This document shows, in pieces, positions 1-64,000 of a DNA stretch of 64,000 nt; the first letter of the stretch is position 1; each line of letters begins with the position of its first letter. Position numbers and translations under genes: made by a program. Under the pieces are notes generated by a model, which did no database searches, was not told where the DNA came from, and was given only the letters and a program-made list of their open reading frames with translations. Where the stretch lies: NCBI GenBank assembly GCA_965178125.1, contig OZ237736.1, positions 1,054,001 to 1,118,000 of the forward strand, read 5' to 3'. This DNA is from Bilabrum cf. latius (Eukaryota).

Positions 1-1054
1 TTGCACCTCATCTGTAGATTCGTCGGATGTCTTTTCAAGGTCTTTTTGACCGCCAGATGTGCCCTCCTCGTTCCTGGCTGTTCTCGCCATGTCGGCATGC
101 TGCTTCTTCATGGTTAGGAACCTGTCTCGGAAGAGAGCGAATTGCATGGCAGACACAGTAAACTCAGGCGTGAACAGCAGTCGCATTACACTATACACAA
201 GGCGTTGGCCAAGGGGCGCACCATTCCCAGATTCCTGCAGCTACTGCCGCTAGATCTGCGCGGCTTCGGAGCTCAGCTGGCTGGACGAGCCTGCCGCACT
301 CTGGTCGGGCCCGGCTGTGCCGGTGACCTCGGGAGCTTCGGCGCCAGAGTCTGCCCCGCCGCTTTCCCCCTTTGCCTATTCAGAGCCAGTATCTGACGCA
401 GTAGCATCCTCTGTGCCAGGCTGGTCAACTGTGGTGCTCTACCCAGCCGCTGCGCTACCAGCGGCAAGCTTGTCTTCCAAGAACTGCTCGAGATAGTCGC
501 CTACTCCGACCCAGACTTCCATAAGGTCTTCATCGTGCTGTTCCGGCGCGGTTGCAGATGAAACTGGAACACCAGCTGCCGTTTGTAGCATCGAGATTTG
601 GTCATCCCACAGCAAGCGTTGCGTGAAGGCATCCTCCGTGTTTTCAAGCAGCACAGGCAAGATTCGAGTGAGCAAACGAACCTGCATGATAGTATTAAAT
701 GAATTGCAGGGCCTTTGGTGCTAATGCTATGCCTTGTCTCAATATGGTAAGCTAAAATCACGCATGCCTCACTATGTTTAGAACAGGCCTTGAATCCTGC
801 TTTGAAAACCGTCCAGAGTAGCGTTCCAGCGCTTCCACCAGTTTGATAACAAGCATACATAAATTTGTCGGAAGCCTGCTTCTCATTGCGCGCACGTCGT
901 CTGGCTAGATCAGTCCAAAGATCTGCTCAACTCCAGCCTTATGATGCCAGAACCCCTCCCAAACGGGATGGTCGGGAGGAACAGTTGCCTTGCATATCTC
1001 TGTTACTGTAGCAGTTAAATCCCTTGGTGCTGGGGCTGACGCCGTATTTCCCAT
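1..1054 (-). CDS. HID1: HID1/dymeclin-family Golgi protein, 5' part (runs off the window); intron 682..772
   Basis: Starts MGNTAS (myristoylation-like). Then EQIFGLI*PDDVRAMR..PTNLCMLV..VLNI|VRLLTRILP..LLW and PLGQRLVYSVMRLLFTPEFTV, matching HID1 N-terminal blocks. Several in-frame TAG, e.g. 439. Confidence 0.8.
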
Positions 1055-1205
1055 GCTGAAGATTGTCAACGCGAGCAGCCCCGCGGCGGCGCTGCCAGAT
1101 CGGAGAAAGTTCCGTGGTTCGGGGAGAGCGACAGCGGCGTTTTAGATTCGGGCTTGGCGACGCGCTGTGGTGGATGTTGTGTCTAGCAAACACAGAAACA
1201 CTTAA

Positions 1206-4200
1206 TCAAACAAGCAGCTGCCCAAGCGTAGAGGTGTCTGCCACGTACTTCATCGCCTTGACCGATGCCAGCGGGGCCTTGCCCTTGTGGAACTCGTCCT
1301 GCTTCCACGCGCTCTCAGTGGATTCCACCTTATCGTTCTCGCCGAAGACTTGCACTGACAGGCGTCGGGGCCAGTCGCTAGATGACCCGCTCTCACTTGC
1401 CCCAAGCACCCTCTCTCGATACATGCTCTCGATGTCTGCAAGCGTGACACTCCCGGCACGCAGCTGGGCCAGCCTTTCCTCGGCAGCTGCAAAATCGTAT
1501 CGCAGGGATGAGATCTCCTACCACATCCAGCTGGCAGCCTCTTCCATCCTCTACGGTTTCTTGCGATACTCTGCATCCAGAGCATCCACAAGTGCCTCCC
1601 AACGTGTGCGATTCTGCTCGCCTGATCCCTTCCCGAGCGCAGCGATCTCGACCGGGACGGTCTACTCCAAGAAGGCAGCGATGCGCCCGTCCATCAACGC
1701 AGCACTCTTTCCGCCCTGCGCAATCACGTACATGATATCCCTGGCGTCGCTGCCCCCCGTGGCACCGCTCGCCCCAGCCGCCGCTTTGCCCCGGGCGGCC
1801 AGCGACGGAGCAGTGTACGCGAGCCGCGTGCTGCTCTCGCGGTATATGGGATCAATGGGCTCTGCGGCCCCCCTGGGGGCAGCTGCAGACTGCGTCCCTC
1901 CAAAAACGATGTATCCAAGTTGCTGCTGCGTGCGCAGTGTCTCAAATGCGGGCGTTTCTACTGCGTCGCTGAGCAGACTGGCGGCAATGCTCTTCCTGGC
2001 CATGCACCGGCGAGTGGACGCTTCGGAGCCGCTTGGGACAGCCAGCCTGCGGGCCTGGGAGTGGGCCTCTGCTGCACGCGCACAAGACTGCTGATGGCCC
2101 CCGGCCGCGAGGCAGGCCTTCATTCTGCGCCTGCGGTGGGTGGCCTGCAGCTGCACCCACTCCCTGGTAAGCACTGGATCCTCGTCGACGGCCGAGCTGC
2201 CAGTCGGGTCTGCCAGAACCGCCGCTGCGTCTACTCGAGTACTAGCCTGGGCACTTGGTGCCTGCCTGATGCGGTGCTTGCGCGTCCCTTTGGCCTGCTT
2301 GCTGCTAGGGCTGGCACCACTGCCGTGTCCGCCGTGGATGGAGACCCTAGAGGCGCCCGCCTGGGACTGCAGCAGGGAAGAAGGCCCACCGAACAGCAGT
2401 TCTGCAGCACCCTTTCTGTGGGTGTGAGCCGCAGCATGCGAGCCAGCTGCATCTTGCTCCGCAGAGGCGCCCACTTGCTTGGCAACTCTCCCTGAATCGC
2501 CTGCGGCCTTGTTTGATCTCTGCGTCGCAGATCCGCTGTTCGACTGGCTCGCGTGACGCGCGCCAGAGCGCGCGGAGCCATCCGCCGCGCAGTCACCGAG
2601 CCGAAGCCCCATATCGGCGACAAGGAACACCGCGCTATCGTTCTCGTTGTCTCTCGACACCTTCCTCTGCACGCCCCAGGCGCCCTTGGACAGCTTCCTC
2701 AGCTGCTGCCGGAGTGCCCTCGCCTCCTCTGGCAAGAGAGGCTCGGCATCTCTCAACGCCTTGGCAAAGATCCCTCCAGTTTCAGCTGCTACTGCGGCGT
2801 TCACGTCACCGTAGACCAGCAGCTGCAGCCGCACCTTGGCAAAGATTCGATTCGCGTGCTGCTACAGAAGCTCAATAAGCTCTTTGTCGCTCATCGCGGC
2901 GAGCTTGTTAGCGGCTGCCCTGCGCTGCGGGATAGAGAATCGCGTGGAGCCGAGCGCCAGTCGGGCAAAGTATGAAGCGCGCTGGTACACCTGTTGCGCC
3001 CGCTCCGCGTTCTCAATGCCGATGAGTGCCGTCTGCAGATTCGCATCAAGCCGCTTGGCCGTGATGTTGGGGTGCGTGACTCCGTCCAGCACCGTGTCGA
3101 TCCACAGAGGCATGTGCTAGGTGAATCCACGGAATGTAATCATCAGGGCGGATGCCTGCGGGTCCTGCGAGACTGAGTATCCATAGCTGGCCTTAGCTCC
3201 TTGGTACGCGACTGTCTGCAGGGTGTCGCTGATGGCGTCGAGGACGAGCGAGGTCAGCATGGAGTGCTTGGCCGTCTTGGACACCTCCTCGGAGGACACC
3301 AGGGCATACACAACCTGTTCTGGCCTCCGAAACACCGTGTCCTGCTTCTGCCACACCTCCATCGCTGCGGGTGACAGAGAGGCTGGCTCGTCTGCTAGCA
3401 CCCTGGCGGCAGCGAATCGGGCGAGGGCCTGTGCCGCACTCGGTCCATCCGGTGTACTTCCAGTAGAGGCAGATCCCTCTGCCTGAGCCTATCGCGAGCT
3501 TCGCAGAGCCAGTGCGATGGATTCCGGTTCCACGGCTGTGGGGGCCTCAATGTACGCCTCGTCGGGGTCGGCTGCCGCCGTCTGGTTCTGGTCCGATACA
3601 GGCAGCGGCTCGAGCTGGGTGGGAATGAAGGGGTTGCGCGCCGGAAGATGCAAAGTATCTCCCGCTTCAGCCCTCTGAAGCTCTTCCAGCTTGTCATCCG
3701 GCACGCGGCTGGACGCATACTTGGTCCCGTACACCGGCTCCGAGCTCGTCAGGCTCGTGGCGTTGATCGCAGACGACACCAGGGTGACTAGCATGCGCTG
3801 TGGGGTCATGCTCTGCAGGATGTGCGCGATACCCACTGGGTCAAAGAGCTATCGCTGAGGGGGGCCCAGCACATCGATCGGGGGCCTCACGTGCAGAGAG
3901 CGCGCCATGGAGGAGGCGATGTCGGATGGACTGCCCTTCACATAGTACTGGAAAGCAGCAGCGCTAACTTGCATGGACTCGTCCCAGATCCACTTGGGCG
4001 GGGCCTGCAGCCTACGCAGCATGTTGCAATAGGCAAATACAGCCTGCAGGCACTGCTGCAGCACCTCCTCCTGCTCCTGCTGGGACCCCCGCATGGCAGT
4101 TGGCGAGAGCGTCATGTCTACCCCCATCAGCGAGAAACCGGCGGAATCCAGCTGCAGCCCGGCACTGATCTCCTCCACCAGACCGAGCTCTCCCTTCAGG

Positions 4201-5749
4201 TGGGCCAAAATGCTGCCCTTGCCCTCGTCCCCGAGCAGAGAGGACAAGTAGCCGGCGGGGTTGCGCCTGTACCGATGCAGCTGCGAGGGCAGTGGCCACA
4301 CAATGGAGATGGTGTGAGACTCGGCAACCGGTGAGACGCGGACGACCGAAGCTAGCGTGCTGGCCGCCGGAAATATCGCAGAGGGGGAGATGTCGCTTGG
4401 CTCGTACGCGTTGCCGATCGTGACAGCAGCGCCGGCCTTAGTCTGCCCCGCAGGTAATCCAGCGATTCCCTGAGCTCTGCGCTTGGGGGTCGCATGCGCA
4501 GCGGCAGCGCCCGGGCTGGACTAGCCGGCGTGAGTCTCTCCATTGATAGGCATCCCTGCGGCAGCTTCTTGCAGCAGCGATCCGCTGCCACGGGCCGTCG
4601 CCGTCCCATTTCCTGCCGAGCTGGACGCGGCTCGCCTCTGCTGCCCCACGGACCGCACGCCGCCGAACGCCTCGTGCGCCAGTGCCCGGAGGTCTTGAAT
4701 CGAGTGTCTACCCACGATAACTGCCTTCATCTTAGGTGCAATGTAGTGCTCCGTATGGAAAGTCCTGAGCGCCTGCATGACGCCAGTGCGATTCAAAGTG
4801 GTCAGGTCTCCGGTGGAGAACCGGCTGAAGGGTGTGCCCGGCCGGGAGGACTGCTTCAGCAGCTGAAAGAGGCGCCACCCGTCGCTGAGTAGGTTCTTCT
4901 GGTGCTCAGAGTGCACGGCTCGCATCTCCCTGCCTATCATGTTCTCGTCGAGCAGCGGTGCGACAAAGAACTGAGCGAATCGGTCGATGGCTCCGGGCAG
5001 CGCAGACCACTCGACGGAAAAGTAGTAGTTCGTGTGCTCAGAGTCGGTATAGGCATTCGAATCCCCTCCATGGTCGCCAAGCCACTGCCGGTACCCGCTT
5101 TCTTCAGGGTATTTCGAACTACCAAGAAACAGCATGTGTTCCAAAAGGTGCGCGAGGCCCTCGAAGCCTGGCGGATCACGCCAGCTTCCGACTCCAACGT
5201 CAACTGCACCTGCGCAAATAGAAAAGCCAGATAAATCAAATAAAATACATGTGCAGGCTGACTTGACAAAATAACTTCGCCGTGTGTAATCCTTCACGCG
5301 AATGCTTACAAGCAGCCTGGTCAGTCTCTGGGTCCGATACTAGCATGACTTCCAAACCATTCGGGAGCTCTACATTCTCAAAAGCACGCTTGTCGTTTGG
5401 ACTAGCCAAGACTCGAGTCTCATCTTCATTTCCTCCCGCCAGCGATCGAGAACGATAGGCCGACTGTGATGTATGTGGCAAGCTACAGAAGTGTCGCATT
5501 ACGTGATCGAACGACCACCAGTCACACTGATGCATTATATTCATAACTTACGACGATGAGGCCAAGTAACACGGAGGAAACGACCGCCAGTCCACAAAAA
5601 CCTCCCAAAACTGAGTATGGAGAGCGAGGTTGACTTTCAGCTGGCCCAAGCTGCCGATCGACGCTTGTGCCGGCTTCATTGCTGGGATTGAGACCAATCA
5701 ATTCATTGTCGCTGAGAGCATCATCATTGCTGGGTCCTTGGGTTGCCAT
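1206..5749 (-). CDS. Insulysin/pitrilysin-like M16A metallopeptidase with N-terminal signal anchor; introns 5464..5551 and 5210..5309
   Basis: Motifs ELPNGLEVMLVSDP, GLAHLLEHMLFLGS (HxxEH), NAYTDSEHTNYYF, FETLRTQQQLGYIV. ORF fragments ending at 4521, 3849, 3489, 3117, 2862 and 1662 are all in one frame and separated by TAG. Ends TGA at 1206. Confidence 0.9.
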
Positions 5750-5898: not shown

Positions 5899-8597
5899 AT
5901 GCCACGAGTATCTAGATTAGTAGCTGCCGGGGGGCGCACACAGCAATCTCATGGACGACTGCCGATTCGAGCGGCCGGTGAGGCTCAACGTAAAGGCAGG
6001 TACAAGGGCGGAGCTACTGCTAGTTTCGACGATGAAGACGGCGTATCGCAGGATGTAAGTACTCTTTGCTTTGTTATGGTTGCCGCTGGTATGGAATATC
6101 AAGCTGGAAAGCACAACTACCCAATCTAGCCCCGACAGCACAGGCCATGACCGACAGGCCACTACGACAGATTATTGATGGAAACCACAAATTCCACATG
6201 TTCAAAGCATCGCAGACAATACAGCTAGTAGCACGGATGATCCGTCGCGTGCAGCATCGAATGACTCTATTCCGTTTCGTTGATGAGTTCATCGTCGTTC
6301 GGCGGATGATGGAGCGACTGAATCGAATCATTATATACGGATTCTTTATGGTCGTATTTACTATCTCTACAGTTTATGCATTCTAGGAACAGGTGAGTCG
6401 CTCTATAGAGATCCGTAAATGCTGTGCGGAGTGTGCTCTGGCACATGCTCAGCTCCCAAAATCAGTTTCGTATTTGTTTCAATGCATGCAGGATCTCTAC
6501 CACATGGCCAGAAATTTAAAAGGTCAGCTCACTTCGACTGAGTTTGAGGAGCAAGACTCAGGGATCAAGAAGACTTTTGCCGACATCGAGACCATTGCAG
6601 AAGTGCACCAGTGGTTACGAGGACCGTTTGCAAGAACTCTGTACTCGGGCTCAACGCTCTGGGTCGAGAACTATGTCGAGTCTCCGAACCCGAGGCCTGG
6701 GGCCATTTTTGGATTTAACACCATCGTCGGCGGTGTGCGAGTTGCGCAGCTGCGTATGGAGCTCCAGGCGCGAGACTCGTGTACGCGAGTCCTGAGTAAG
6801 TTGTTTCGCTCCAGCGCAACCTCCTCGTTGGGTGATTTGGAGCAGAACACCACCGTTGTAGATGCTAGCACCGGAACTGACCTGCTGCAGACGAGCGGTG
6901 CTCTGTGTGTCGGGGTTGACGGGGACTACCAGTAGGACGAGGAAAGCAAGTAGCCAGCCGGTGGGTTTGATTGGGCAGGCCCACAAGGAAACGATAGTGA
7001 ACTGTACCACACAGTGCAGGAAGAGCGCAACCCGTTTGGGATCGGAGCCTCCAACGGTGGAGGCATTCGAGGACCCACGGGCACAACGTACCCAGCGCCT
7101 GCGTTTCCGGTAGTCCTGCCGAATCGAAATTACAGTGCTAGCCTGCAAATGCTGGAGAGCCTTGAAGAGTCTCGCTACTTTGACCTGTAGACCAAGGTCT
7201 TCCGCGTGGACTTCACGGTGTACAATCCGCACTTGGACAAATTTCATGCAGTCTGCGTCGTATTTGAAGCCAATCGAGGCGGGGGCTTGGAAAAGGGCTA
7301 CTACCACAGCACTGCCACGCTTCATTCGCCATTCGAGTCCAACGACTGGCTTACTGTGACGTGTGAGTTGATCACGGCGGCGTTCTTTGCCTGGTTCATC
7401 GTGGAAGAAATCTGGTTGCACCGCAAGTATGGCTACTCGCACTTCGCCAAAGCGGAGACGATCATGCACATTGTCAACATTATGTGCTATGTGGCGGTGT
7501 GGTCCTTCAGGATCATGGCAATGGGGACATCCCCTGATCTCGACGAGGTGGTGGCCTCGTCTGGCGTGTACTACGGCTACGTGATCCCGGTTCGGTGGAA
7601 GCACGCTGCGGTGCAGATCAACGCAATCAACGCAGTGTTGGCGTGGATGAAGATTGCTAAGGCAATGACAATCATCCCACAGTTTCAGACGGTATTGGGG
7701 ACCCTGGCTCGAAGCTTCAGGGCGGCAGTGCCGTTCATCATTGTGTTCGGAGTCTTCGTCTACAGCTTTGCATCGTCCTATCTGCTGGTGTTTGGCTCAC
7801 AGCTCGGGGACTACCGCAACATTGGGTTTGCGTCATGGAGCCTTTTCAAAACCATCCTGGGCGATTTCGAATTGGATAGCCTCGCGTCCGCGTCGTACTT
7901 TCTAGGCCCGCTGCTTGCAGTGTCCTTTGTGGCCCTTGCCTTGTTCGTTATCCTCAACATGTTGGTCGCCATCGTACTTGACTCGTACCAAGAGGAAGTG
8001 ATGGAGCTGAAGAGAAACCCGCAGCATCCGGTGATGCCCTTTTTATCAGCGTACGTGAACCTAGGCGTCTATCACGTGTGTGGCCTGGAGTGTCGACGCT
8101 GGTTCAGGGACTAGGAGCAGTCGTGCGGACGGATCGTTGGACTCCGGTGCTCGCGTCGACACCAGGTCTTGATCGAACTCATGTGCACTCCCGCTGGCGT
8201 GGTGCCTGAGCTGCCAGCCGCAGAGGCTGCGTCACTGCAGGCTGCTGAGTCGGAGAGTTCTCGAAAGAGGGCACGGACTGATGGTACGCCTGCCCCGAGC
8301 CCGAAGGCCTCAAGCCCCAGACAACCGAGAGGAATCAGCGATGCCCTGGTTAGTGTGCTCGAGACCTTGACAGAAGAGCAACGGGCAGAGGTGTTGGGTA
8401 AGTTGACTAGTCACCTCGGTAGCAGCCATGGAAAGTCAGGTGCTGACACCAGCGGTGCGGCCGACGCTGGTGAGGCTCGTCCAGCAGAAGGGCCGTGGAC
8501 TCGCTCACTGGAAGGACAGCGGGGAGTAAGCAGGCATGGCGTGACCCCTCCAGGTGCTACGGTGGTGAAAGTTGGATCAGCGAGCAATGGAAAATGA
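5899..8597 (+). CDS. Polycystin-2 (PKD2/TRPP)-like cation channel; introns about 6055..6143 and 6393..6491
   Basis: Motifs NTIVGGVRVAQLR, DFTVYNPHLD, six-TM region with LFKTILGDFE pore and FVILNMLVAIVLDSY. In-frame TAG at 6384, 6933 and 8112, among others. Ends TGA. The start codon is tentative. Confidence 0.85.
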
Positions 8598-11057: not shown

Positions 11058-11173
11058 ATTTACCCTCAAACGAATTGAGTAGGAAGCAATCTCGTGGCTG
11101 GATCCGTTGGGTGGATTGTTGCGTGCGGTTGCCGTTCTAGCCGTTGCGGCGCACATTGCTACACACGTCCAGC

Positions 11174-13887: not shown

Positions 13888-13918
<31 letters not shown>

Positions 13919-15195
13919 GTGGCCACCGGACAATACGGTGGTGGAGCCATGGGCATGCCAGGACAAATGTATGGTAGCAATGGAACCTTTGGCGGACCCA
14001 TGGGGACTGCCATGGGTGGAATGGGAATGGGAATGATGGGCCTGGATCCTTCGCAGCTGGTCGTCAGAGCAGCCGCAGAAGCAAGCGCCTCGGCAGCAGC
14101 TGACGCAGCCACGGAGTTCTTCGAAGAGGCTAAAGGGCATGCTGCCAAGGCAAGAGCAGACGAGCTGAAGCGATCGCGACGCGCAGCCGCCGTCTACAGC
14201 GCCGCTCTTTGGCACACGACCGGTGGTGCTGCGGGCCAGCCCATGTTCCGGGGCTTGGACGATGCCAGCCTCACGCTGGCTGGGAATCCAGAGTCGGACT
14301 TCGATGACCTAGACAAGGCACCAGACGGCTCAAGAGCCACCCGTCAAGACCCACTGTTAAATGCGACCTCAGGAGCGGTGGCCGCTGGAGGTATTGCTTC
14401 GTCTGGTGCCCCTGGCGGCAGCTCTGCTGCAGCATTCGCTGGCGCTTCGCTCAGGGACCGCGGCATCGAGGATCTGCCTCGCCTCGAGTCTGGCATTCAA
14501 AGTCTGAAGGACAGGCTTAGCAAGTCAGGGCAACTTCCAGCTGAATCTGGTGCCGGAGGAGAGGCAAAAGAGTCAGAGGACAAGCCGTCGGCAGAGGCAG
14601 ATGCTAAGGAAGAGTCTGCCCTCGATAAGACGTGCCGCATGGTGGACGAGCTGGACGAGGCCACTGCAGCCGAGCAAAGGGGCACCGCATGGAAAAGAGG
14701 TGGTCTTGATGCTGACGCTGCCATTCGGAAATCTCTGCAGCATGCAGACAGGGCATGGTCCGCCATGCGCAAGTCATGGGACGTGACCAGCCGTGCGACC
14801 GCGCTCGGCGGTGCTGCCAAAGCTGGGCTGCATGGAGCCGACCGCAAAGCAACGGAAAAGCTTGCATCGTCCTGGGCTGGTCTACAGCGTGACCTAACCA
14901 ATGTGCTAGAAGGCTCGGCTCAGGCTCCACCTCAGTTGCCACAGACACAGCCTTGGCAAACTGGTGGGTATTGGCCTGGAATGAGCATGGGTGCCGGTGG
15001 AGCTGCCGCAGCCCCTTTCGGTGCATCGATGCAGCAGGCACCGTACGGCTCCACAATGCCGATGGGCGGCATGATAAACCCAATGGGGACTAGCGCCGGC
15101 ATGCCTGGAATGTTTGGCGCCACAGGTCCATCAATGGGAGGCTACGGCGGTATGACACCAGCTGGTAGTCAGGGGATGGGCATGGGCATGGGCAC

Positions 15196-15229
<34 letters not shown>

Positions 15230-19271: not shown

Positions 19272-19409
19272 TGCTGCCTGGAGCTTTATGATTTGGTTGC
19301 CTTTGTGACGTGGCTGAGAATGAGACCAAATACTAGCTGCGGACCCCTTTTCCCCACAAACAATAGACTATGATACGTCTGTCGAAAAGATGGTAAGCAG
19401 GCCGCTGAA

Positions 19410-46165: not shown

Positions 46166-46405
46166 TCCCAGGATGGGGAGTGTGTGAATACGTGATTGTT
46201 TCTCGCCGAATCTCCTAGCCAATTCATCCAGAAATAGGCAACCACCTCGGTGGTGGAGACACCCACCTCGCCGATCCCGAATAGTCCCATCACTGGCAGA
46301 TTCTTCCGGTCTCGGGGAAATGCGACGAGTTGCATTTGCTTGTGCTTGCAGAGCCGGACACTCGGCTAACAAAGTCACTTTTCACTGCATTCACTTCTGA
46401 AGGCA

Positions 46406-49680: not shown

Positions 49681-49816
49681 TCTTCGTATTGTCCGTGGAT
49701 GAGCTGCAATCCGGTCGACGGCAACATTCCGAGTAGATCTGGGGATGCACCCGTAATTGTCGTCAACGCAGCAAGCGCGGGGACGCACCCCACGACGCAT
49801 CTAATTTTCCTTGCAA

Positions 49817-55000: not shown

Positions 55001-55406
55001 CGCTGACATCGCCAGGAGGGGCGGTGCAGGGCTAGAGACCCCCCCACGCGTGCGGGGGGACCAATGCAGCGGGGGGAGCTTGGCGCTAGCTCATGCCGGG
55101 GGGGGCACGGGGCACTGGCCGGGGTAGGCATCTGGGGCAGGGGTGCAGGGTCAGGTGACTGCGGGGCCCGGCTTTGCGCCATCGGTGCACGGGGCAGGTG
55201 CTCAGGCTGGGCACCAAGCCCGGCTGTCTGCTCGCCTGGCGCTCGAGGCGATGAGACGATCTGTGGACGAGCGGTATAGGTCTGTTCTAGCGCATGTTCA
55301 GTAGCAGCGCCTGGTAGCCCTTGGAGAAATCGATGCTACAATCAGATACGTTGACGCGACGTTTGCCGCTGATGGGGTTGGAGCAGCTGGCAGTCCGCCC
55401 GGTTGA
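52028..55406 (+). CDS. RPEL-repeat plus kelch-repeat beta-propeller protein; intron 52527..52620
   Basis: Three RPEL-like motifs (LSRRPPLD*LVQRNI, LRHRPSADDLRARGIL, LAHRPGLAELRRASVL). Kelch repeats PRSCHTAT, PRYAHTAV, PRAAHAAV, PRAGHSLS, ARSGHGTC, PRSGHTLT. Ends TGA at 55404-55406. Confidence 0.82.
53055..53088 (+). repeat. (GCACAT)n coding microsatellite, Ala-His repeat
   Basis: Tandem gcacat units are directly visible. Confidence 0.9.
54486..54540 (+). repeat. (ACTGGC)n coding microsatellite, Thr-Gly repeat
   Basis: About nine tandem actggc units. Confidence 0.9.
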
Positions 55407-55716: not shown

Positions 55717-58700
55717 ATGACAGACCGGGGTGACGGCGACGTTCCTCAAGACGAAGCCATGGACATGGGAGGTTTTGCAGTGCGAGACCTTGATAACGGC
55801 TAGATTAGTGAAATTATCGACGCTGGTTCCAGGTGAGCCGCCCACCGTCCCATGTGACTTCGACTGCTAGCTGCGATTTCTCTGCACATTCCTCTGCGAA
55901 TTTAGCTCCACCCACACTAGCAGCTCTTCGCAAACGCCACTGCACGCCATGTACTCGGTCGAAGAGCACAGGATCATTGATGAATCTAATGGTGAGCTCT
56001 GCACCGCACGGAGGCAACAACGAAGAAACGCCAAGTTGGTCGACGGGTTGCGGGCTTGTTGCCTGCTGCGCAGCAAAGATGCTGCACCGCAGTTCACGCC
56101 TTTCACTGAATTTTAGTATTTTTATTTGAGCAGGTGACGAACCTGCTTCCGGTGGCTCTTCTGGCGAGACCGTGCGACCGTACCTGTCCTATGGCGATGC
56201 TATTGAAGTCGAAGTAGTCGGGAACGGGATCGCCAGAGATAGCAGAGGACCGTTTACAGCATATTGCATACGAGTACGGCGGCACACCGCGGGGGGATTC
56301 CAGGAGTGGTTTGTCTACAAGCGGTATTCACAGTTTCGGGACCTGAAGTACTACCTTCGGCTTCACAAAGCTATTGAGGTTCCGTGCGAGTTCCCTGGCA
56401 AGCGGGTTTGGAACATTTTCGAGAGGGAATTCCTCTCGCAAAGGCAGGCGGCCTTGGGGCTGTGGATGAGTAGCATGCTTCGGTGCCGGCGGCTGCCGGG
56501 CGCGGGCGCCACCCCGGAACCGCCCCCGAGCCCTGCCCTGGTGGCCCGCGCTGCCTCCATGTCGAGGCGGCCTTGCGAGATGCTAGCGTACAGGTAGGTC
56601 ATTCAGTTTCTCTGCGAAGACACGGAAGTGCCGCCTGAGTATAGCGGGGGCATACCCTCCGCGCGGTCTGCAGGAGGGGGCGCGGGCGCTGCAGAGGGCA
56701 AATCGGACGACGGCTCGGCATCGGGCGCCGCGCGCGCACCGGCTGCAGCCGCTGCCAGCCCGGCGCAACCAAGCCCTGCCCTTCCCTCTACTGCTGCAGC
56801 GGCACTGCCTTCCTCTGGCGTCACAGGCTCGGGCTCGGGCTCGAGCTCTAGGACTGGTCCTAGGGTCGCGGGCCCTCGGTCCAGGGGCCCTCCCCAGTCC
56901 TCCTCTCGAGTGCCGGGGGCGGCGGCAGGCGGCTCAGGCTCCAGGGGTCCACCGCTCCCCAAACGCAAGACTAAGCGGTCTGCGATCGGAGTGGAATCCT
57001 TCGACTACCTGAAGGTGGTGGGCAAGGGGGCCTTCGGCAAGGTGCTGGTGGTGCGCAAGAAGGACACGGGGAAGGTTTACGCCATGAAGGTGCTGGAGAA
57101 GCAGAGCATCATCAAGAGGAAGCAGGTCGCGCACACGCAGACGGAGCGGAGGGTCCTCGGATTTACCCGGCACAGCTTTATCGTGGGGCTTCACTTTGCC
57201 TTCTAGAACAAGGAGAGACTGTTCTTCGTCCTGGACTACTGCGCGGGAGGCGAGCTCTTCTTCCACCTGTCGAGGCTGGGCAGGTTTCAGGAGCCCATGG
57301 CGCGCTTCTACACGGCAGAGCTGGTCCTGGCGCTGGAGCACCTGCACAACAAGGGCGTGGTGTACAGGGACCTCAAGCCCGAGAACGTGCTGCTGGACGC
57401 CAAAGGACACATCAGGCTGGCGGACTTTGGCCTATCCAAGGAAGGCGTCAACTCTGCTCTTGCGGGAACCACGTCGTTCTGCGGCACGCCCGAGTACCTG
57501 GCGCCCGAGATCCTCGACAGGCAGCCTGGAGGGTACGGCAACGCCGTGGACTGGTGGTCCCTAGGCATGCTGCTGTACGAGATGCTCACTGGCTTGCCCC
57601 CTTGGTACACCAAGGACCGCAAGAAGCTCTACGCGAAACTGCGGTCTGCGCCCCTCGTGTTCCCTGACTACGTCGGTGGCGTGGCTCGCGATTTGATTGC
57701 CGGTCTCCTGGACCGCGATCCGCTGAAACGGCTGGGGTCGGGCCCCTCTGGCTCGAACGACATCAAGGGGCACCCTTTCTTCCGCAAGATCGACTGGTCT
57801 AGGCTGCTCAAGAGAGAGCTGCGACCCCCGCTGCAGCCTGTCAGCTCGAGGGCGAGCGGCGCAGACACGGGCAACTTCGACAAGGAGTTCACGGAGCTAG
57901 ACGTTGAGAAGGAGCTCAAGTCCAAGCACGGGCTGAGGAGAGACAAGCCGAGCGATGACCCAGAGAAAAAGAAGAAGGAGTACCGCCAGCAGGCACGGCT
58001 AGCGAGGGCTGGTCCCGGTGCCAACGCGAGCGACAGTGACGGCAGCCCTGGGTCTATTCGGAGGGCCAGCTCCGCTTCCACCACCATGCCTTACTTTAAG
58101 GACTTTACCTTTGAGGCCGGCAACGAGCTGCGGAGGGGCTCCAGGGCCGGGTCGTACGCCAGCCCCCTGGTGCCGAGCGACCTGCTGAGGCACGCGAGCC
58201 GCACCTCCTCGCCCAGCTTTGGCCCGCTGGATGCCATGGGGCAGGCCATCGGAGGTGCAGGCGTGGGATTGGGCTCGGGCTCTGGCACGGGGGGTTCGCC
58301 TAGGGCTGAAGGGGTGCTGCGAGCCGCCCCAGCGCGAGAAACCTCCGAGCTGGGCATGATGGCGGGTGGAAGCGAGGGCCAGACCGGCGTGGACGACCTC
58401 GTGGGAATGCACCTGCGGCCCAGCCCCGACTTGGGCCCTGGCAGCGCACCCCTAGGGCCCCCGGGAGCGGGGCACGCGAGCATGCTGCCGCCCTCGGCTG
58501 CTGGCTCTGTTCGCTCCCAGCCCCCACCTCCACCCCCTGTCGAACGCGAAGCAGAGGAGCGGCCCATCTCACCGGGCCTGGCCGCCGCCATGCAGAGCCA
58601 CCCGTCCGGCGCGGCCAGGAGGCATGCAGGCGGGCTGGGTTCGGGCAGGGCCGCTGGGGCGCGTGCAGGCAGCGGGCGGACGGCGGGCGGGCTGGCGTCG

Positions 58701-58955
58701 CCGCTGTCCTCCAACGGAACGGCGGGGACAAGGGTGCGGACCAGGCCGCAGATGCCGCGCAGCGGCGTGCTTCGCATGGGGCTGCGCACCTCCCCTGGTC
58801 AAGGGCGGGGTGCGGCTGCGCCATCCAGCGGGGGGCAAAGCACCCTCGGTTCGCGCGGGGGTTAGCGGCCAGGCCCGCGAGGGCTTGGTGGGCTGGCTGG
58901 TGTGATGGGTGGCAACGCGCGGCGGGCTGGCGGGGCCGGCAGAGGCGGCACATGA
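55717..58955 (+). CDS. PX-domain AGC-family Ser/Thr kinase (SGK3/Akt-like); introns 55833..55923 and 55992..56133
   Basis: PX: FTAYCIRV..WFVYKRYSQFRDL..FPGKR..FLSQRQAAL. Kinase: VVGKGAFGKV, YAMKVL, FAF*NKERLFFVLDY, YRDLKPEN, DFG, SFCGTPEYLAPE, NFDKEFT, hydrophobic motif FKDFTF. Ends TGA at 58953-58955. Confidence 0.92.
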
Positions 58956-59445
58956 GTCTGCGGCGATGCGATGCGAGGCCAGGTGGGGTAAGCGAGCTAG
59001 GAAGCGAGCTTAATGGTGCTGTTGGTGTCACGGTACGGTGTGACATCTGTCTTGTAGATCTCGATAATATCCGCGCTTGGCCTCAAGCAGCCGTTGGAAA
59101 TTGGCGCTGAAAGGTCATGCGCGCGCTGGCGCCATGCGAGTTGGGCCACACTTGTGCTTCGCTGCATGCAATGCCATTCGTTGCATTGCATCGCAGCGCT
59201 GCACACGCTGCCGCGGTGGAAGTCGTGCCGACCCAAGCATCGTGAGGTGCTTCTTGCGCGCTTCTGCTTCGTGCAGCCCTGTGTTGCCGCTCCATGGACT
59301 GCTATCAGCGTTCGTTAGTCTTCGGATCTGAAACCGTGTATAGATTATGCTGAACCAATTACTGGCGCCATACACAATGATTCGAGCAAGACACGCGCAG
59401 GAATACACAACAAGCACACTGACTAGATGCCTTGCGTTTGCTCGA

Positions 59446-60270
59446 TCACGTGCCTGGCTTTGCGCCCATGAGCCCGCTGCTGGTGAAAAACCGCTTCATC
59501 CACGGGTCCGATTTGTGGACACCAATGGTCTCTGGAACGAGCACTTCGTATCCGAACGGGATTGATCCCTTCGACTTGAACTCTATTCTTGGCAAATGGC
59601 TCGTCTATGATGCCGCTGATGATGCGATGCCAAGAATCGCCTTCCGCAGAGATACGTCTAGCTCCAGCTCGCGCTGGCGCTGGACGGCCTTCTCTTCCTC
59701 AGACGCCGCGAGCTTGCGCCGGGTAGTATCAGCAAGAATTGACATCTACCATCTCTCCCTGCGAAAAATCATTCAGAATGTTGCCTCCGAATAAGGCGTG
59801 CGACCGCAGCACAAATTCGACCAGCGCCACGGTCGGACAGCCACTCTCACCAGGTTATTTTCTCGCGTGACTGCATGCCAAAGAATCCACTCTTAGATCT
59901 CTCAGAATAAAAGCGTAGTTCAAACTAAAACCGGACAAGTGTCTCGCTAACTTCCTTGCTAGCGTCTTGAACTTCCGTTACGGCTTGCTCGACTTGCTCG
60001 GTTACATCAACATCGACAGCGCGGGGATACTCCACGGAAAACATCTCGGAGCCTTCCTGCGCTGATCACAAGACTAAAACACTCGCCTGTTGGGTTCATT
60101 TATTGTGATATCTTGCCATATGGGCTCCTGCAGGATGTTCTTACTATTTTTGGTTTGACAACCCCGAGGCTCCTTGTAAATAGTATTGTGTGAAGTAATG
60201 CCCGGACTACATCCGATACAACGATATATTCGCACCGAATCTCGCTAACTCGGTGCAAAGCTGCGTTCAT
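59446..60270 (-). CDS. ATG101: Autophagy-related protein 101 (HORMA); introns 60057..60144 and 59759..59850
   Basis: MN..DVVRALLHTILFTRSLGVVKP, LRFYSERSKSGFFG..EKITW|ERW, HLPRI..PFGYEV. Contains in-frame TAGs. Ends TGA. Confidence 0.8.
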
Positions 60271-60415
60271 TGCCCCACACAGAGGCCTAGAAAATACTTC
60301 GGTTCGTAGACTAGTTGCCGCACGCTTGGGACGAAGGTTCGGTGAGTGGTTCGCTAGAGCTAGGGACTGGATTTTACAGTTTAGAGCAACCAAAACATGT
60401 TCTCTATAGCTTGAA

Positions 60416-63400
60416 ATGGGTGTGAAGAATTTATGGAAGCTTATGGGGCCTGCTGGCAGACGGATTGCGATCGAAACGCTCCGTGGCAAGGTGAGAGTGT
60501 CGACACTATCAACTGCGTGGGTAGTATTCCCGGCAATTATTCACGCCTCGCACATGTCAAATTGCATATTTCCAAGCTTAACATTGTACTTACATAGTAT
60601 TGCAGGCGCTTGCGGTTGATGCAAGTATATGGATCACGTAGTTCATCAAGGCCATGCGCGATTCCGATGGGAACATAATCTAGAATGCACATGTCCTGGG
60701 GACGCTGAGAAGGATATGCAGGTTATTATTCCATAGGATTCGTCCTGTCTTTGTGTTTGATGGAGGAACACCAGTGTTGAAACGCCGAACCGTGCTGAAG
60801 CGAACGATGGCACGCCAATCTCAATCTGCGTAGCTTTAGAGAGCAGCCTAGAAACTCGTGCTGAATATGGTCCGGCAGCAGTAGATTCACAAGAGATAGG
60901 GACACTCTAGGAAGGGCAAGCGCGGACCTGCAGCTGCCAATCGTACTCCTGCCAGCGCAGCCGTGGCCTCGATGTCAACTGCAAGCCGAGCCAAAGTACC
61001 AGATGGCTCTTCATCGGAGTCAGGCAGCGATATAGAGATGACAGCCGGGGCCCTTAGCGGGAGAGGTACTGGGAACAGGTACTGGAGAGTTCCAAAGTCA
61101 GAGATCGAGGCCAGGTAGGAAACAGTCCGCCAGCGTGCTCGCCGTGCTGCGTCTGCATCCAAATCATCTAAAGCAGGCCCCGGCAGGCTCAGGAAACGGG
61201 GTCGAAAGTCTCAGAAACTTGCATCCTCTGGATCGAACAGCTCGGGAAAGTCGTCCTCGGTGGCTAACGGTGGGCATTCGATGCCCCATTCGATGTCCGC
61301 AACAGAAGGTGCGGACTAGCGGCTTGCACGAAAGTAGTCTGGCGGGGCCGCAGCGGACGATGTGCTAGAGAGCGAGAGCGAGGACGAAGGCGGATACGAG
61401 GATTTTGACGTCGGCACTGGTGGGGAGTTCCCACCGTCCGTGCCTGTCGTTTCGAACGCCGACGACGTGGACTTCAGCGTGCTCAAGTCGCTCCCACCCA
61501 GCATGCAGCAGGAGTACGTCGACGAGGTGAAGAGGGTACGGCGGCAGGCCTCCCGCAGCAGGATGCTCCCGGTCGCCGCAGATCCTCAGGGCTTCAGCCA
61601 GCTCTCCCTAGGCTCCTTCCTGAAAGACGCCTCCCTCAGCATCGCGGTGGACAAGATGAACAGGCAGCAGGCCAAGGAGGCCATGCAAGGGAACGTCATC
61701 GTGTCCGAGGCGAACCGCCAGTTCCTCCTGGTCAAGGACGGCGAGGCGGACGCAGCCATTCAGGAAGCGATGCAAGCGGGAGAGATTAGTGGGCGCAACC
61801 TGATTGAAGATGCTGGCGCGAGTCGTGGAGTTGTGTCCGGTGATGACCAGAGCGGGCACGCTGCTGCTAGTATGACATTGGACTTGAACGAGTCCGATTT
61901 GGGCTCTGCAGCTGAATGTGGGCAGCCAAAGTTAAAGCAGACGGGAGACTCACCGTCGCTACTTTCGGCTGCTGGCTCGAAGCGCGGCATAGTAGAAGTG
62001 GACTCCGGTGGCCTGATCAGGGCAGCCAATCGCTACCCGTCCATGTCGCTCAGCATCGATGCCACTGAAGGCGATTTCGAGGATGCGTCAGAAGAAGAAG
62101 AAGTAGAATCTACTTAGACTAAATCGAGTCTCCCTCAGCACGGGACAGAATCTCACCGTGGGCCGCGCAGTACCACCGCAGAAGACGGCTCGCTGTCCCA
62201 CAACAAGAAGCCTTCGCTGGAGCATGAGACTGAAACGGCCAGACTGGCTGCAGTAGCCGAAGCTCTTGGACTGTCAGTCGCAGAGGCTGCGAAGCTGGTA
62301 CAGACCGGCACATAGTCCGGGCAAACCGAGGCGTGCGACGAGCAGCATTCCACAGCATCTGAATCGGGCAGTGATGGATGGGAGGACGCGGAGGAGGCAG
62401 CAAGCGACCAAGACAGCGCGGATGCGCATACATCTTCTGGAGTCGAGGCCGAGGTCCCAAGTGCAAACTGTGCGGTGCTGGATTCTAGCAAGGAATACTG
62501 CGACGGCAAAAGGGGCGAGACTAAGCCGGTCGATAGCGATGGTGAAGAGTATGTGCTGGAAGGCGGGGGTGGATTCTTCATGGAGCCAGACGCAGGCACT
62601 GTTCATGACGATGAGTCACGCCCTGTGCCGGGCTTTGACGGAAAAGTTGCTGATTCTAATGCTGGCGTTTGTGCAGAAGCAACTAAGGTCAGTATTGTGC
62701 CTTTGGAAAGCAGTGATGCTTCCGAGCCACACGGTGTTGTTGCTGGAGATTCGGATGACCAGTTAGCTGTGAGCCAATTAGATGTAAGCGAGGGCGCCGA
62801 TGGTGGGGCCGGCGGCTTCATTCCTGAGACGAGGTAGTAGCAGTCGGCAGGACGAGCTTCAAGCTCTATCGATTCCGATGAGGCTAACAACGAAGCTAGT
62901 GCTGCATCAGGTAGTACATAGGGAGCAGCACCACCTCATCAACTGTACGGCGCTGCGCAAACTGCAGCTGCAAGCACTATCCCGATCATTGGCCAGGATG
63001 AATCCGGTTTGAGTTCATAGAAAGGTTCTGCTGTGAAGGGTGAACATAGCGCCCGGCTGTCCCATGGCGCTGGGTCCAGCTCTAGTGCGGAATAGGCTGC
63101 TCTGGACGAGGCGCTGAAGATGGCTGGCTCCATGGCTGGCTGGGCTGGCGCTGCGATGCGTCGGGCAGTCCAGGCCACTACCGGAAAAGCTGTGCAGCCG
63201 GTTCTCCCAACCGGCCAGCCGTCGAGTTCCACACCATCAAAGGTGCGAGCTGGTGCCTCAAGCGCTGCGTCGTCCCGCGACGAGCAGGCTGCTAGTGACC
63301 CGCACGCTGTTCAGCAATATAGCAATCTAGAGGCCGGTAACAGCACTGTGCAACCAACGGATTGCGCGATTGACAGGGGATCGACCGGTGTGAGTTAGGT

Positions 63401-64000
63401 GGCGTCAGAGGACTTTCCAGACAGCGGCTTTCACACCGAAGGCTTCTCAAGCTCAAGTCGGACTCTGGCTGACTCCGGCTCGTCCTCTCAGTAGCAACTA
63501 GACGGGGATGAGACGGGTCCAACAGCTAACGCAGACCTGGAAGAACTGGAAGAACTAGAAAAACAAGAGAAGGAGCTGCGCAAGACGCGAAGGTCTGCCG
63601 GCAAGGCAGCAGAGTCAATGCAGGACGGCATGCTGGAGGACATCGTGGAGCTGCTCAATGTGTTCGGTATCCCTTACCTTCGAGCTCCTATGGAAGCTGA
63701 GGCACAATGTGCTGAGCTGGAGAGGCTGGGCCTAGTTGAAGGCGTCATCACGGACGATTCAGATGCCTTCTTGTTTGGCGCCCGGCACGTGTACCGCAAC
63801 ATCTTCGACTAGGGCAAGTATGTCGAGGAGTATCGGATGCCCGACATTGAAGCCGACTTGGGCCTGTCTCGAGAGAGCCTACAGCGACTTGCTCTGTTCC
63901 TTGGGTCTGATTACACGGACGGTCTCAAGGGAATTGGAATCGTGACTGCATCAGAGATTATGCACGCTTTTCCTGGCGATGAGGGCCTGAAGGAGTTTGC
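60416..64000 (+). CDS. ERCC5: XPG/RAD2 nucleotide-excision-repair endonuclease, 5' part (runs off the window); intron 60491..60605
   Basis: N-domain [56 protein letters not shown]-like [12 protein letters not shown]-domain [36 protein letters not shown]. Many in-frame TAG. Confidence 0.93.

What the first reader, a model, noticed from the sequence alone, without database searches (positions are those of the whole stretch)
1..64000. Non-standard nuclear genetic code: UAG reassigned to glutamine
Seen: most genes in the window carry in-frame TAG codons, and the frame and domain continue straight through them. The SAP/RCC1 gene alone has TAG at 27674, 28424, 28826, 29123, 29654, 30578, 31094, 31595, 32015 and 32549, all in one frame. 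Established: several TAGs sit at conserved Gln positions. Examples are SQOR HYY[TAG 23117]PGWTLVGGG (family HYYQP), kinase FAF[57204]NKERL (AGC F/YAFQ), XPG SIWIT[60639]FIK (WxxQF), PL8 Y[35503]HG (QHG next to the catalytic His), SLC35F WCAST[49606]L and GALNS QP[46832]Y. Conserved housekeeping genes (ALG2, XPG, ATG101) are affected, so these are not pseudogenes. Inference: UAG=Gln. I am not aware of this being described for the stramenopile-like lineage this resembles, but the taxon is not established.
Basis: partly seen in the sequence, partly recalled or inferred. Interest (0 to 1): 0.95.

Follow-up and report, generated by a model that had tools for sequence, protein, structure and literature searches.

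The report
UAG read as glutamine, stramenopile nucleus
This stretch of nuclear DNA comes from a relative of the flagellate Cafeteria that reads the stop codon UAG as glutamine while apparently keeping UAA and UGA as stops, a rare code change that my literature searches did not find reported for this group.

Summary
All 16 coordinates named are in-frame TAG. 18 of 19 long ORFs hold TAG, 120 in 17,806 codons, with Pfam domains on both sides.

It is not an assembly error, editing or splicing. Contigs of four studies show no differing letter over 44001-64000. Contigs of two runs skip nine short GT..AG introns yet keep 33 of the 49 in-frame TAG there.

UAG = Gln is supported.
- TAG aligns with conserved Gln in AKT, SQOR, Rad2/XPG, PL8 lyases and GALNS.
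- Protein fragments 97% and 93% identical carry Gln at two ALG2 TAG sites.
- A syntenic metagenome contig, L001, also has in-frame TAG. Across 22 TAG sites the partner is Gln 7 times; log-likelihood is Gln -53.9 against -74.9 for the next residue.

TAA is never in frame (about 37 expected if it were Gln), so this is the UAG-only type, as in NCBI table 15.

The closest named relative is Cafeteria roenbergensis. Ten paper searches found no stramenopile case.

Against: a deep-homologue profile test could not separate Gln from Lys. No tRNA, eRF1 or peptide evidence could be obtained.

The parts
1209..5498 (-). M16 insulinase-like peptidase ORF, 10 in-frame TAG
   Evidence: Pfam PF00675/PF16187/PF05193. 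TAG count. Domains continue after the TAGs in the alignment to human IDE. The TAG columns are variable in homologues.
6036..8594 (+). Polycystin-type cation channel ORF, 5 TAG
   Evidence: PF08016, PF20519. One TAG inside the polycystin domain aligns with Gly of PKD2L1.
8704..10719 (-). Amidase ORF with IQ motif, the only long ORF without TAG
   Evidence: PF01425. 0 TAG in 672 codons.
10988..17958 (+). Two EF-hand ORFs (10988-15700 with 6 TAG; 16060-17958 with 3 TAG), possibly one gene
   Evidence: EF-hand families. Counts. The first ORF breaks off inside an EF-hand loop, so an intron probably follows (inference).
18072..19409 (-). ORF of unknown family, 7 TAG, closes on TAA at 18069-18071
   Evidence: No Pfam hit. 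TAA end and a second in-frame TAA 10 codons further on.
19413..21323 (-). GNAT-PhzF fusion ORF, 1 TAG
   Evidence: PF02567, PF00583. The TAG lies outside the part aligned to solved PhzF-family structures.
22598..23263 (-). Sulfide:quinone oxidoreductase exon; TAG at 23117-23119 at a conserved Gln
   Evidence: Aligns with Gln of human SQOR, HFYQP, E = 6.7e-44. In frame.
23498..27286 (+). 1263-codon ORF of unknown family, 12 TAG; last TAG two codons before the closing TGA
   Evidence: No Pfam hit. Tail length.
27347..33121 (-). SAP-RCC1 gene, 17 in-frame TAG
   Evidence: PF02037, PF25390, PF00415. Coordinates. In the C-terminal 635 aa, the two closest relatives have Gln at 2 of 6 TAG columns (one in both, one in Cafeteria only).
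34522..37254 (+). PL8 polysaccharide lyase ORF, 5 TAG; TAG at 35503 before the HG motif
   Evidence: PF02278, PF08124. Aligns with Gln in chondroitinase AC and in xanthan lyase.
38531..46162 (+). 2544-codon thrombospondin type-1 repeat protein ORF, 11 TAG
   Evidence: PF19030, PF00090, PF19028. Count.
46370..48244 (+). GALNS-like sulfatase, three exons (introns 47245-47368 and 47415-47548), 5 TAG; TAG at 46832
   Evidence: PF00884. Gln in human GALNS at 46832, Ile at 47015. Intron joints in X5 contigs. Both this gene and its L001 orthologue end at the same residues on TGA.
48370..49908 (-). EamA/SLC35F-like transporter ORF, 3 TAG; closes on TAA at 48367-48369
   Evidence: Weak PF00892. TAG 49606 aligns with CAG in L001. 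TAA end.
49820..51640 (-). ALG2-like GT4 glycosyltransferase ORF, 5 TAG (51578, 51032, 50936, 50363, 50087)
   Evidence: PF00534, PF13439. Fragments 97% and 93% identical have Gln at 51032 and 50087. L001 orthologue 68% identical with 5 TAG of its own.
52611..55403 (+). Kelch-repeat protein ORF, 6 TAG; CAG-TAG at 52761-52766
   Evidence: PF24681 and other Kelch families. L001 has TAG-CAG at the same two codons.
56130..58952 (+). PX-domain AGC kinase, 3 TAG; TAG at 57204
   Evidence: PF00069, PF00787. Aligns with Gln of the AFQ motif of AKT2, E = 1.6e-98. Covered without any differing letter by spliced contig X5 record 13.
59432..60280 (-). ATG101-like gene, three exons (59432-59757, 59850-60055, 60144-60280), 3 TAG, ends on TGA
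   Evidence: Exon structure from X7 record 26 and X5 joints. Translation and stop. PF07855 on one exon, E = 4.4e-5, below cut-off.
60582..63998 (+). XPG/Rad2 nuclease, runs off the window, 20 TAG; TAG at 60639
   Evidence: PF00752, PF00867. Gln in 118 of 120 homologues at 60639. Gln in stramenopile relatives at residue 90. All 20 TAG lie in spliced contig X5 record 14, 0 other letters.

Best explanation
The window is nuclear DNA of an intron-poor, about 60% G+C heterotrophic stramenopile whose closest named relative is Cafeteria roenbergensis. In this organism UAG is an ordinary sense codon for glutamine. It makes up about 15% of Gln codons in the window. UGA is the main terminator, and UAA is unused in frame and closes two ORFs. 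This is the UAG-only type of reassignment (the assignments of NCBI table 15).

Shown:
- UAG lies inside conserved genes and inside their spliced transcripts.
- It corresponds to Gln codons in near-identical and in diverged relatives.
- The diverged relative has the same habit.

Inferred from how other UAG-to-Gln lineages work (passages of PMC5304391):
- Decoding is by a tRNA-Gln with anticodon CUA, derived by one change from tRNA-Gln(CUG). Such a tRNA pairs with UAG but not UAA, which would explain why only UAG changed.
- The release factor eRF1 has a weakened grip on the third-position G.
For: 1. Sense use. There are 120 in-frame TAG in 17,806 codons of 18 of 19 long ORFs, with Pfam domains on both sides. 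Genes with 17 and 20 TAG need near-complete decoding.

2. Real and present in mRNA. Over 44001-64000, contigs of 4 runs from 4 studies show no differing letter. X1 carries the introns. X5 and X7 contigs skip nine GT..AG stretches of 88-142 nt, and their listed pieces cover 33 of the 49 in-frame TAG there. These include all 20 of XPG and all 3 of the kinase.

3. Gln at conserved columns. AKT2 AFQ; human SQOR YQP; Rad2 IYQF, with 118 of 120 homologues; chondroitinase AC and xanthan lyase QH; human GALNS PQ.

4. Near-identical relatives. Fragments 97% and 93% identical have Gln at 2 of 2 ALG2 TAG sites that they cover. The 97% fragment breaks off exactly before a third TAG.

5. Diverged relative L001 (syntenic, 66-76% nt identity). 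Its ALG2, EamA, Kelch and sulfatase ORFs hold 5, 6, 5 and 6 in-frame TAG. Of 22 aligned TAG sites the partner is Gln 7, Gly 3, Arg 3, Glu 2, and seven other residues once each. True Gln codons keep Gln at 0.47, and no other residue pairs with Gln above 0.047. Empirical log-likelihood: Gln -53.9, Lys -74.9, background -67.1.

6. UAA. There are 0 in-frame TAA, against about 37 expected if it followed the CAA:CAG ratio. There are also 0 in the L001 ORFs. Two ORFs close on TAA, each with another TAA 10 or 30 codons on. The sulfatase and its orthologue end at the same residues on TGA.
Against: - A profile test on deep homologues of four genes (21 TAG columns) ranked Glu (-49.5) and Lys (-51.8) above Gln (-57.6).
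- In resampling, true-Glu columns never give so small a Glu-Gln margin (0 of 2000). Only 3% of true-Gln samples reach the observed margin at the loosest filter, rising to 23-28% at stricter ones. Lys is not excluded by this data set.
- None of the 8 M16 TAG columns has a Gln consensus. The two closest relatives have Gly, Trp, Glu, Glu/Gln, Ala, Leu and Gly.
- The run records do not state that X5 and X7 are RNA, and the tool marks X5 'probably DNA'. Their RNA nature is my inference from the spliced joints and from depth uneven by about 100-fold.
- X7 record 24 has one other letter whose place is not listed.
- No tRNA gene is present in the window or in L001. There is no eRF1 and no peptide evidence.
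- The terminator role of UAA rests on two ORF ends. At least three of the 16 TGA ORF ends lie at exon borders and are not terminators.
- Whether UAG still terminates some genes is open. Five ORFs have their last TAG 2-33 codons before the closing stop.
Confidence: 0.9

Rival explanations
1. UAG is a sense codon but stands for another amino acid, most plausibly Lys or Glu.
For: The deep-homologue profile test ranks Glu and Lys above Gln and does not exclude Lys. Several XPG TAG columns are Lys/Arg-rich. L001 has GAA/GAG at two ALG2 TAG sites and AAG at one sulfatase site.
Against: - Five columns conserved for Gln in the homologues compared, in five unrelated enzymes, would all have to be replaced.
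- Relatives 93-97% identical have Gln at 2 of 2 sites.
- In the codon alignment with L001, Gln beats Lys by 21 and Glu by 27 natural-log units.
- True-Glu columns never give the observed profile margin (0 of 2000).
Confidence: 0.03
2. Both UAG and UAA mean Gln (the common UAR = Gln code, NCBI table 6), and TAA is merely rare because the genome is G+C-rich.
For: UAR = Gln is by far the commoner variant (passages of PMC11687900). TAA is rare in the window in all frames (394 occurrences on both strands). UGA closes 16 of the 18 ORFs that end inside the window.
Against: - There are 0 in-frame TAA, against about 37 expected from the CAA:CAG ratio applied to 120 TAG.
- Reading TAA through adds almost nothing to ORF lengths.
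- The less G+C-rich L001 (54.6%) has 22 in-frame TAG and no TAA in its ORFs.
- Two ORFs close on TAA, each followed by another in-frame TAA.
Confidence: 0.04
3. UAG is ambiguous: Gln inside genes, but still a terminator near some mRNA 3' ends, as in context-dependent codes.
For: In five ORFs the last TAG lies only 2, 14, 26, 29 or 33 codons before the closing TGA or TAA, and those tails are short or of low complexity. Nothing in the window excludes it.
Against: - In ten other ORFs 85-524 codons follow the last TAG. In ALG2 and the sulfatase this stretch is conserved with L001 to the end or close to it.
- No gene was found whose homology stops at a TAG.
- The 93% identical ALG2 fragment ends at the same residue as the window's ORF, at the TGA.
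Confidence: 0.1
4. The TAGs are not translated as such. They are assembly or sequencing errors, are edited to CAG in the RNA, lie in tiny introns, or mark pseudogenes.
For: None found. Each was a formal possibility before reads were laid.
Against: - Four runs of four studies agree at every position of 44001-64000.
- Contigs with introns removed keep 33 of the 49 TAG there.
- The nine joints seen are 88-142 nt GT..AG stretches between exons, none at a TAG.
- Only TAG, never TAA or TGA, interrupts the frames.
- A diverged relative keeps the same genes open with its own TAGs at other sites.
Confidence: 0.01

Closest known systems
UAG-only reassignment to Gln with UAA kept as stop: the fornicate Iotanema spirale, the ciliate Protocruzia tuzeti and two phyllopharyngean ciliate lineages (assignments of NCBI table 15)
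   Same: The codon assignments seen here are the same: UAG = Gln, UAA not sense, UGA stop. The presumed mechanism is the same: a tRNA-Gln(CUA), which reads UAG but not UAA, plus changes in eRF1. Sources: passages of PMC5304391 and PMC11687900.
   Different: The supergroup branch differs: a free-living, G+C-rich relative of Cafeteria among stramenopiles, so an independent origin. The tRNA and eRF1 were not seen here. That table 15 carries these assignments is recalled, not from a call.
UAR = Gln codes (NCBI table 6): many ciliates, Hexamita, ulvophycean green algae, Streblomastix strix, Amoeboaphelidium protococcarum
   Same: A stop codon becomes Gln, and in-frame UAG is spread through ordinary genes (passages of PMC11687900).
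   Different: In those codes UAA is Gln too. Here TAA is absent from 17,806 in-frame codons, against about 37 expected, and closes two ORFs.
UAG-only reassignments to other residues: rhizarian exLh (Leu), Scotinosphaera (Ser), and a ciliate with UAA = Lys and UAG = Glu
   Same: UAG and UAA are uncoupled (passages of PMC11687900 and PMC5304391).
   Different: The residue here is Gln. Leu, Ser and Glu lie 41, 21 and 27 natural-log units below Gln in the codon alignment with L001.
Ambiguous stop/sense codes (Condylostoma, karyorelict ciliates, Blastocrithidia)
   Same: Standard stop codons occur inside genes (search listings and abstracts).
   Different: Here two dedicated stops remain (UGA, and probably UAA). 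No sign was found that position in the mRNA decides the meaning of UAG, but this could not be excluded.

Membership tests
UAG-only = Gln nuclear code (assignments of NCBI table 15) | In-frame UAG in conserved, expressed nuclear genes | tested here: met
   120 TAG in 18 of 19 long ORFs with Pfam domains on both sides. 33 of 49 TAG in 44001-64000 lie in contigs that have introns removed.
UAG-only = Gln nuclear code (assignments of NCBI table 15) | UAG columns correspond to Gln in homologues | tested here: met
   - Five conserved Gln columns.
- Gln at 2 of 2 sites in 93-97% identical fragments.
- Gln at 7 of 22 sites against L001, log-likelihood 21 units above the next residue.
- Against: the deep-profile test on four genes is inconclusive between Gln and Lys.
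UAG-only = Gln nuclear code (assignments of NCBI table 15) | UAA is not a sense codon | tested here: met
   0 in-frame TAA in 17,806 codons against about 37 expected, and 0 in the L001 ORFs. This covers only this window and one 6.8-kb contig.
UAG-only = Gln nuclear code (assignments of NCBI table 15) | UAA and UGA terminate | tested here: inconclusive
   UGA ends the sulfatase at the same residues in both species, ends ATG101 within a spliced contig, and the kinase contig runs about 400 nt past its TGA. UAA closes only two ORFs, whose true C-termini are not confirmed.
UAG-only = Gln nuclear code (assignments of NCBI table 15) | A tRNA-Gln with anticodon CUA | not testable with these tools
   No whole genome is held. 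No tRNA gene in the window or in L001, and no Rfam match.
UAG-only = Gln nuclear code (assignments of NCBI table 15) | eRF1 altered in its stop-recognition motifs (GTS, NIKS, YxCxxxF) | not testable with these tools
   eRF1 is not in the window, and the organism's other contigs cannot be reached.
UAR = Gln code (NCBI table 6) | UAA used in frame as Gln alongside UAG | tested here: not met
   No in-frame TAA. Reading TAA through leaves the ORFs almost unchanged.
Bicosoecida / Cafeteria lineage (taxonomic placement) | Groups with Cafeteria in gene trees and best hits | tested here: inconclusive
   - Cafeteria roenbergensis is the best named hit in 3 of 3 searches that give names, at 33-55% identity.
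- A quick single-gene M16 tree puts the window as sister to Cafeteria plus an unnamed metagenome protein, SH-aLRT 96. The careful search was not finished.
- No rRNA in the window and no multi-gene tree.

The most novel reading that the evidence does not exclude
This would be the first nuclear stop-codon reassignment found in stramenopiles. A clade of Cafeteria-related heterotrophic flagellates, with at least two members about 30% diverged in DNA, independently evolved the rare UAG-only = Gln code while the Cafeteria roenbergensis proteins compared are full-length standard-code predictions. The organism occurs in sequencing runs of at least four studies, including spliced transcript data. So the responsible tRNA, the eRF1 changes and the age of the switch could be worked out directly.
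Probability: 0.6. Interest if true: 0.8.

Novelty: new member of a known kind. Interest (0 to 1): 0.75.

Why it matters
Nuclear code changes are rare. Cases where UAG and UAA are uncoupled are rarer still: the discussion of PMC11687900 lists only a handful, none of them a stramenopile. A new independent origin adds a data point on why Gln is the recurrent target and on how eRF1 can drop UAG while keeping UAA. The close outgroup Cafeteria appears to use the standard code, since its predicted proteins are full length, and a second, diverged member shares the change.

There is also a practical side. Standard-code gene callers cut this organism's proteins into pieces; the public protein fragments of 112-204 aa found are examples. 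Its genes will therefore be missed or misread in genome, metagenome and contamination screens unless UAG is read as Gln.

Tried and rejected
- Whole-genome route: no genome is held for the window, so a genome-wide codon inference, a tRNA-Gln(CUA) search and an eRF1 search were impossible.
- tRNA scans of the window and of L001 found nothing. Rfam at gathering thresholds found nothing in either.
- The look-up of sequencing runs: no RNA holder listed. The RNA nature of X5 and X7 is inferred from the joints.
- M16 peptidase homologues (120 found, 15 aligned): the TAG columns are too variable to name a residue.
- A Codetta-like test with profiles built from deep homologues of four genes was underpowered. 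Even true Gln columns give Gln as top residue in only 83 of 200 samples of 21. It excludes Glu but not Lys.
- PDB comparison of the PhzF part: the TAG lies outside the aligned stretches. Of the polycystin part: Gly at the one aligned TAG.
- Base composition of the ORF tails after the last TAG did not settle whether UAG ever terminates.
- The careful maximum-likelihood search for the M16 tree did not finish in the time allowed, so only the quick tree is reported.
- Ten literature searches found no stramenopile nuclear code change, nor did term look-ups in a stramenopile review, a Halocafeteria genome preprint and an Incisomonas paper. Subscription journals and supplementary files were not searchable.
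- Rejected readings: pseudogenes, assembly error, RNA editing, TAG-containing mini-introns, and pyrrolysine- or selenocysteine-type recoding. The last is rejected because the aligned residues are Gln and nothing points to a dedicated insertion element.

Full report
**What is in the window**

The 64-kb window is about 60% G+C and densely packed with eukaryotic genes. Under the standard code no ORF exceeds 672 aa. If TAG alone is read through, ORFs of 2544, 1925, 1571, 1430, 1263, 1139, 941, 931, 911 and 853 aa appear. Reading TAA through changes almost nothing. Reading TGA through lengthens many random frames (longest 1039 aa), so ORF length by itself is not the argument.

The argument is that these TAG-containing frames carry coherent Pfam architectures on both sides of the TAGs. 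They are:
- an M16 peptidase
- a polycystin channel
- EF-hand proteins
- a GNAT-PhzF fusion
- a SQOR exon
- SAP-RCC1
- a PL8 lyase
- a thrombospondin-repeat giant
- a GALNS-like sulfatase
- an EamA transporter
- an ALG2-like glycosyltransferase
- a Kelch protein
- a PX-AGC kinase
- XPG

 An ATG101-like gene was read from a spliced contig. One of its exons matches PF07855 at E = 4.4e-5, below the family cut-off.

**Check of the observation**

The SAP-RCC1 gene has 17 in-frame TAG, not 10. In 19 long ORFs I count 120 in-frame TAG among 17,806 codons, and 18 of the 19 hold at least one. The other two frames of the same DNA hold 108 TAA and 675 TGA, so frames of 1000-2500 codons without TAA or TGA are not chance.

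**Are the TAGs real and in the mRNA?**

The stretch 49800-59000 is held by 14 runs of 9 studies. I laid Logan contigs of four runs from four studies on 44001-64000. No differing letter is reported in any of them.

Run X1 covers the stretch with unspliced contigs. Runs X5 and X7 contain contigs that skip nine stretches of 88-142 nt with GT..AG ends, or CT..AC for minus-strand genes. The joints are at 47244>47369, 47414>47549, 51630>51722, 52524>52619, 55829>55921, 55990>56133, 59757>59850, 60055>60144 and 60488>60604.

These joined forms are absent from X1 and X6. Together with a roughly 100-fold spread of depth between genes, I take them to be spliced transcripts. This is my inference: the run records do not say RNA, and the tool marks X5 'probably DNA'.

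The listed pieces of these contigs cover 33 of the 49 in-frame TAG of the stretch. That includes all 20 of XPG, all 3 of the kinase and all 3 of ATG101. X7 record 24 has one other letter whose place is not given, but X5 record 13 covers the same gene with none. So TAG is neither an assembly error, nor edited to CAG, nor spliced out.

**Which amino acid?**

Three independent kinds of comparison were made.

(a) Conserved columns. TAG aligns with:
- the Gln of AFQ in AKT2
- YQP in human SQOR
- IYQF in yeast Rad2, where 118 of 120 XPG homologues have Gln
- the Gln before the catalytic His region in chondroitinase AC and xanthan lyase
- PQ in human GALNS

A further XPG column is Glu in most homologues but Gln in the stramenopile ones, Cafeteria included. 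In the RCC1 part, the two closest relatives have Gln at 2 of 6 TAG columns, one in both and one in Cafeteria only.

(b) Near-identical relatives. A search of 1.84 billion representatives with the ALG2-like protein returned short fragments 97%, 93%, 81% and 79% identical. They look like pieces of genes cut at TAG by standard-code gene calling. The 97% and 93% fragments have Gln at the two window TAG sites they span. The 97% fragment ends exactly before a third TAG. The 79% fragment has Glu at a fourth site.

(c) A diverged relative. L001 is a 6765-bp metagenome contig, 54.6% G+C, syntenic with window 46497-52870 at 66-76% nucleotide identity. Its ALG2, EamA, Kelch and sulfatase ORFs carry 5, 6, 5 and 6 in-frame TAG of their own, and 3 of 3 complete ORFs end on TGA.

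In codon alignments of five ORF pairs there are 22 sites where one species has TAG and the other an ordinary codon. The partner is Gln 7 times, Gly 3, Arg 3, Glu 2, and seven other residues once each. One pair reads CAG-TAG in one species and TAG-CAG in the other.

In the same alignments true Gln codons keep Gln at 0.47, and no other residue is paired with Gln above 0.047. With the substitution frequencies of these alignments the log-likelihood is -53.9 for Gln, -74.9 for Lys (the next) and -67.1 for background. Many non-Gln partners are one base from TAG (GAG, AAG, TTG, TCG), as expected for an ordinary sense codon.

**Results that do not favour Gln**

The eight M16 TAG columns are variable and show no Gln consensus.

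I also ran a Codetta-like test with profiles built from deep homologues of M16, XPG, RCC1 and ALG2, using 21 TAG columns. It ranks Glu (-49.5) and Lys (-51.8) above Gln (-57.6).

Resampling shows the test is weak for Gln. True Gln columns come out as Gln in only 83 of 200 samples. It excludes Glu, since 0 of 2000 true-Glu samples have so small a Glu-Gln margin. It is only marginally compatible with Gln at the loosest filter (3%), better at stricter filters (23-28%). It does not exclude Lys.

My reading is that TAG codons sit at less constrained sites than CAG and CAA. The close-relative data and the conserved columns decide for Gln.

**UAA and UGA**

No TAA is in frame in 17,806 codons. If TAA were used like TAG, in the CAA:CAG proportion, about 37 would be expected. 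The L001 ORFs, less G+C-rich, also have none.

Of the 18 ORFs that close inside the window, 16 close on TGA and 2 on TAA. At least three of the TGA closures are exon ends, not terminators. Well-supported TGA terminators are:
- the sulfatase, where both species end at the same residues
- ATG101, within the spliced contig
- the kinase, where the contig runs about 400 nt further

The two TAA closures are each followed by another in-frame TAA, 10 and 30 codons on. So the code is of the UAG-only type.

Whether UAG keeps any terminator role near 3' ends is open. Five ORFs have their last TAG 2-33 codons before the closing stop.

**Who is it?**

Cafeteria roenbergensis is the best named hit for the M16 peptidase, XPG and the RCC1 protein, at 33-55% identity, with a sharp drop in score to the next named taxa. 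A quick single-gene tree puts the window's M16 protein as sister to Cafeteria plus an unnamed metagenome protein (SH-aLRT 96; the careful search did not finish). No rRNA lies in the window.

The Cafeteria proteins are full-length standard-code predictions. This fits Cafeteria using the standard code, though I did not test that.

**Mechanism**

By analogy with Iotanema and Tetrahymena (passages of PMC5304391), I infer a tRNA-Gln(CUA), one mutation away from tRNA-Gln(CUG). It reads UAG but not UAA. I also infer an eRF1 with weakened recognition of the third-position G. Neither could be looked for here.

**Comparison with what is known, and novelty**

The discussion of PMC11687900 (passages) lists UAG-only = Gln in Iotanema spirale, Protocruzia tuzeti and two phyllopharyngean ciliate lineages. 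It lists UAG = Leu in a rhizarian, UAG = Ser in Scotinosphaera, and UAR = Gln in several groups. It lists no stramenopile.

Ten full-text searches and term look-ups in three stramenopile papers found no report of a stramenopile nuclear code change. Subscription journals and supplements were outside reach.

The kind of code is known, and the lineage appears new. I file it as a new member of a known kind.

**Verdict**

- Observation confirmed.
- Interpretation supported and sharpened: UAG only; a Cafeteria relative; shared with a diverged relative; present in spliced RNA.
- Confidence 0.9 that UAG is a Gln sense codon.
- Interest 0.75.

Noticed in passing
window 49800-59000: The same DNA is held at half or more of its sampled words by 8 runs from 4 studies that carry 4 different coded organism labels. 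Either these are labels for one species, or this flagellate travels as a co-cultured or contaminant organism in other organisms' samples.
   Followed up: partly
window 54486-54540: A short repeat inside the Kelch gene (a Gly/Thr-coding dinucleotide-like run) attracts about 500-fold summed contig depth and many loose ends in all four runs. This suggests it is repeated many times in this genome or in others. The long 'joints' of X1 and X6 that land here (for example 54536>56826) look like repeat artefacts.
   Followed up: no
window 44001-64000: The nine introns seen are all 88-142 nt with GT..AG ends. Genes are packed closely on both strands, with roughly 20 genes in the whole 64-kb window.
   Followed up: partly
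window 8704-10719 (-): The amidase ORF carries an inserted charged region with an IQ calmodulin-binding motif. It is the only long ORF with no TAG in 672 codons, whereas XPG has 20 in 1139. TAG density varies strongly between genes.
   Followed up: no
window 1209-5498 (-): The M16 peptidase is about 1430 codons long because of large low-complexity inserts. Cafeteria (1526 aa) and an unnamed metagenome protein (1348 aa) share the long form, and the three form a clade apart from ordinary insulin-degrading enzymes.
   Followed up: partly
window 18072-19409 (-) and 23498-27286 (+): Two long ORFs (446 and 1263 codons, with 7 and 12 TAG) match no Pfam family under either TAG=X or TAG=Q.
   Followed up: partly
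window 27287-27289 and the three codons before it: The 1263-codon ORF ends TAG, two sense codons, then TGA. This could be a sense TAG near the end, or a case of UAG still terminating with a back-up stop.
   Followed up: no
L001 1-6765 against window 46497-52870: Gene order and orientation (Kelch, ALG2, EamA, sulfatase) are conserved between the window and a relative only 66-76% identical in DNA. TAG sites are mostly not shared between the two, so TAG codons turn over quickly.
   Followed up: partly
proteins P0266, P0298, P0309, P0411: Public protein collections hold 112-204-aa pieces of this lineage's ALG2 gene. They start at internal Met or Val codons and at least one ends at a TAG, which is a footprint of standard-code gene calling on a UAG = Gln organism.
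   Followed up: partly
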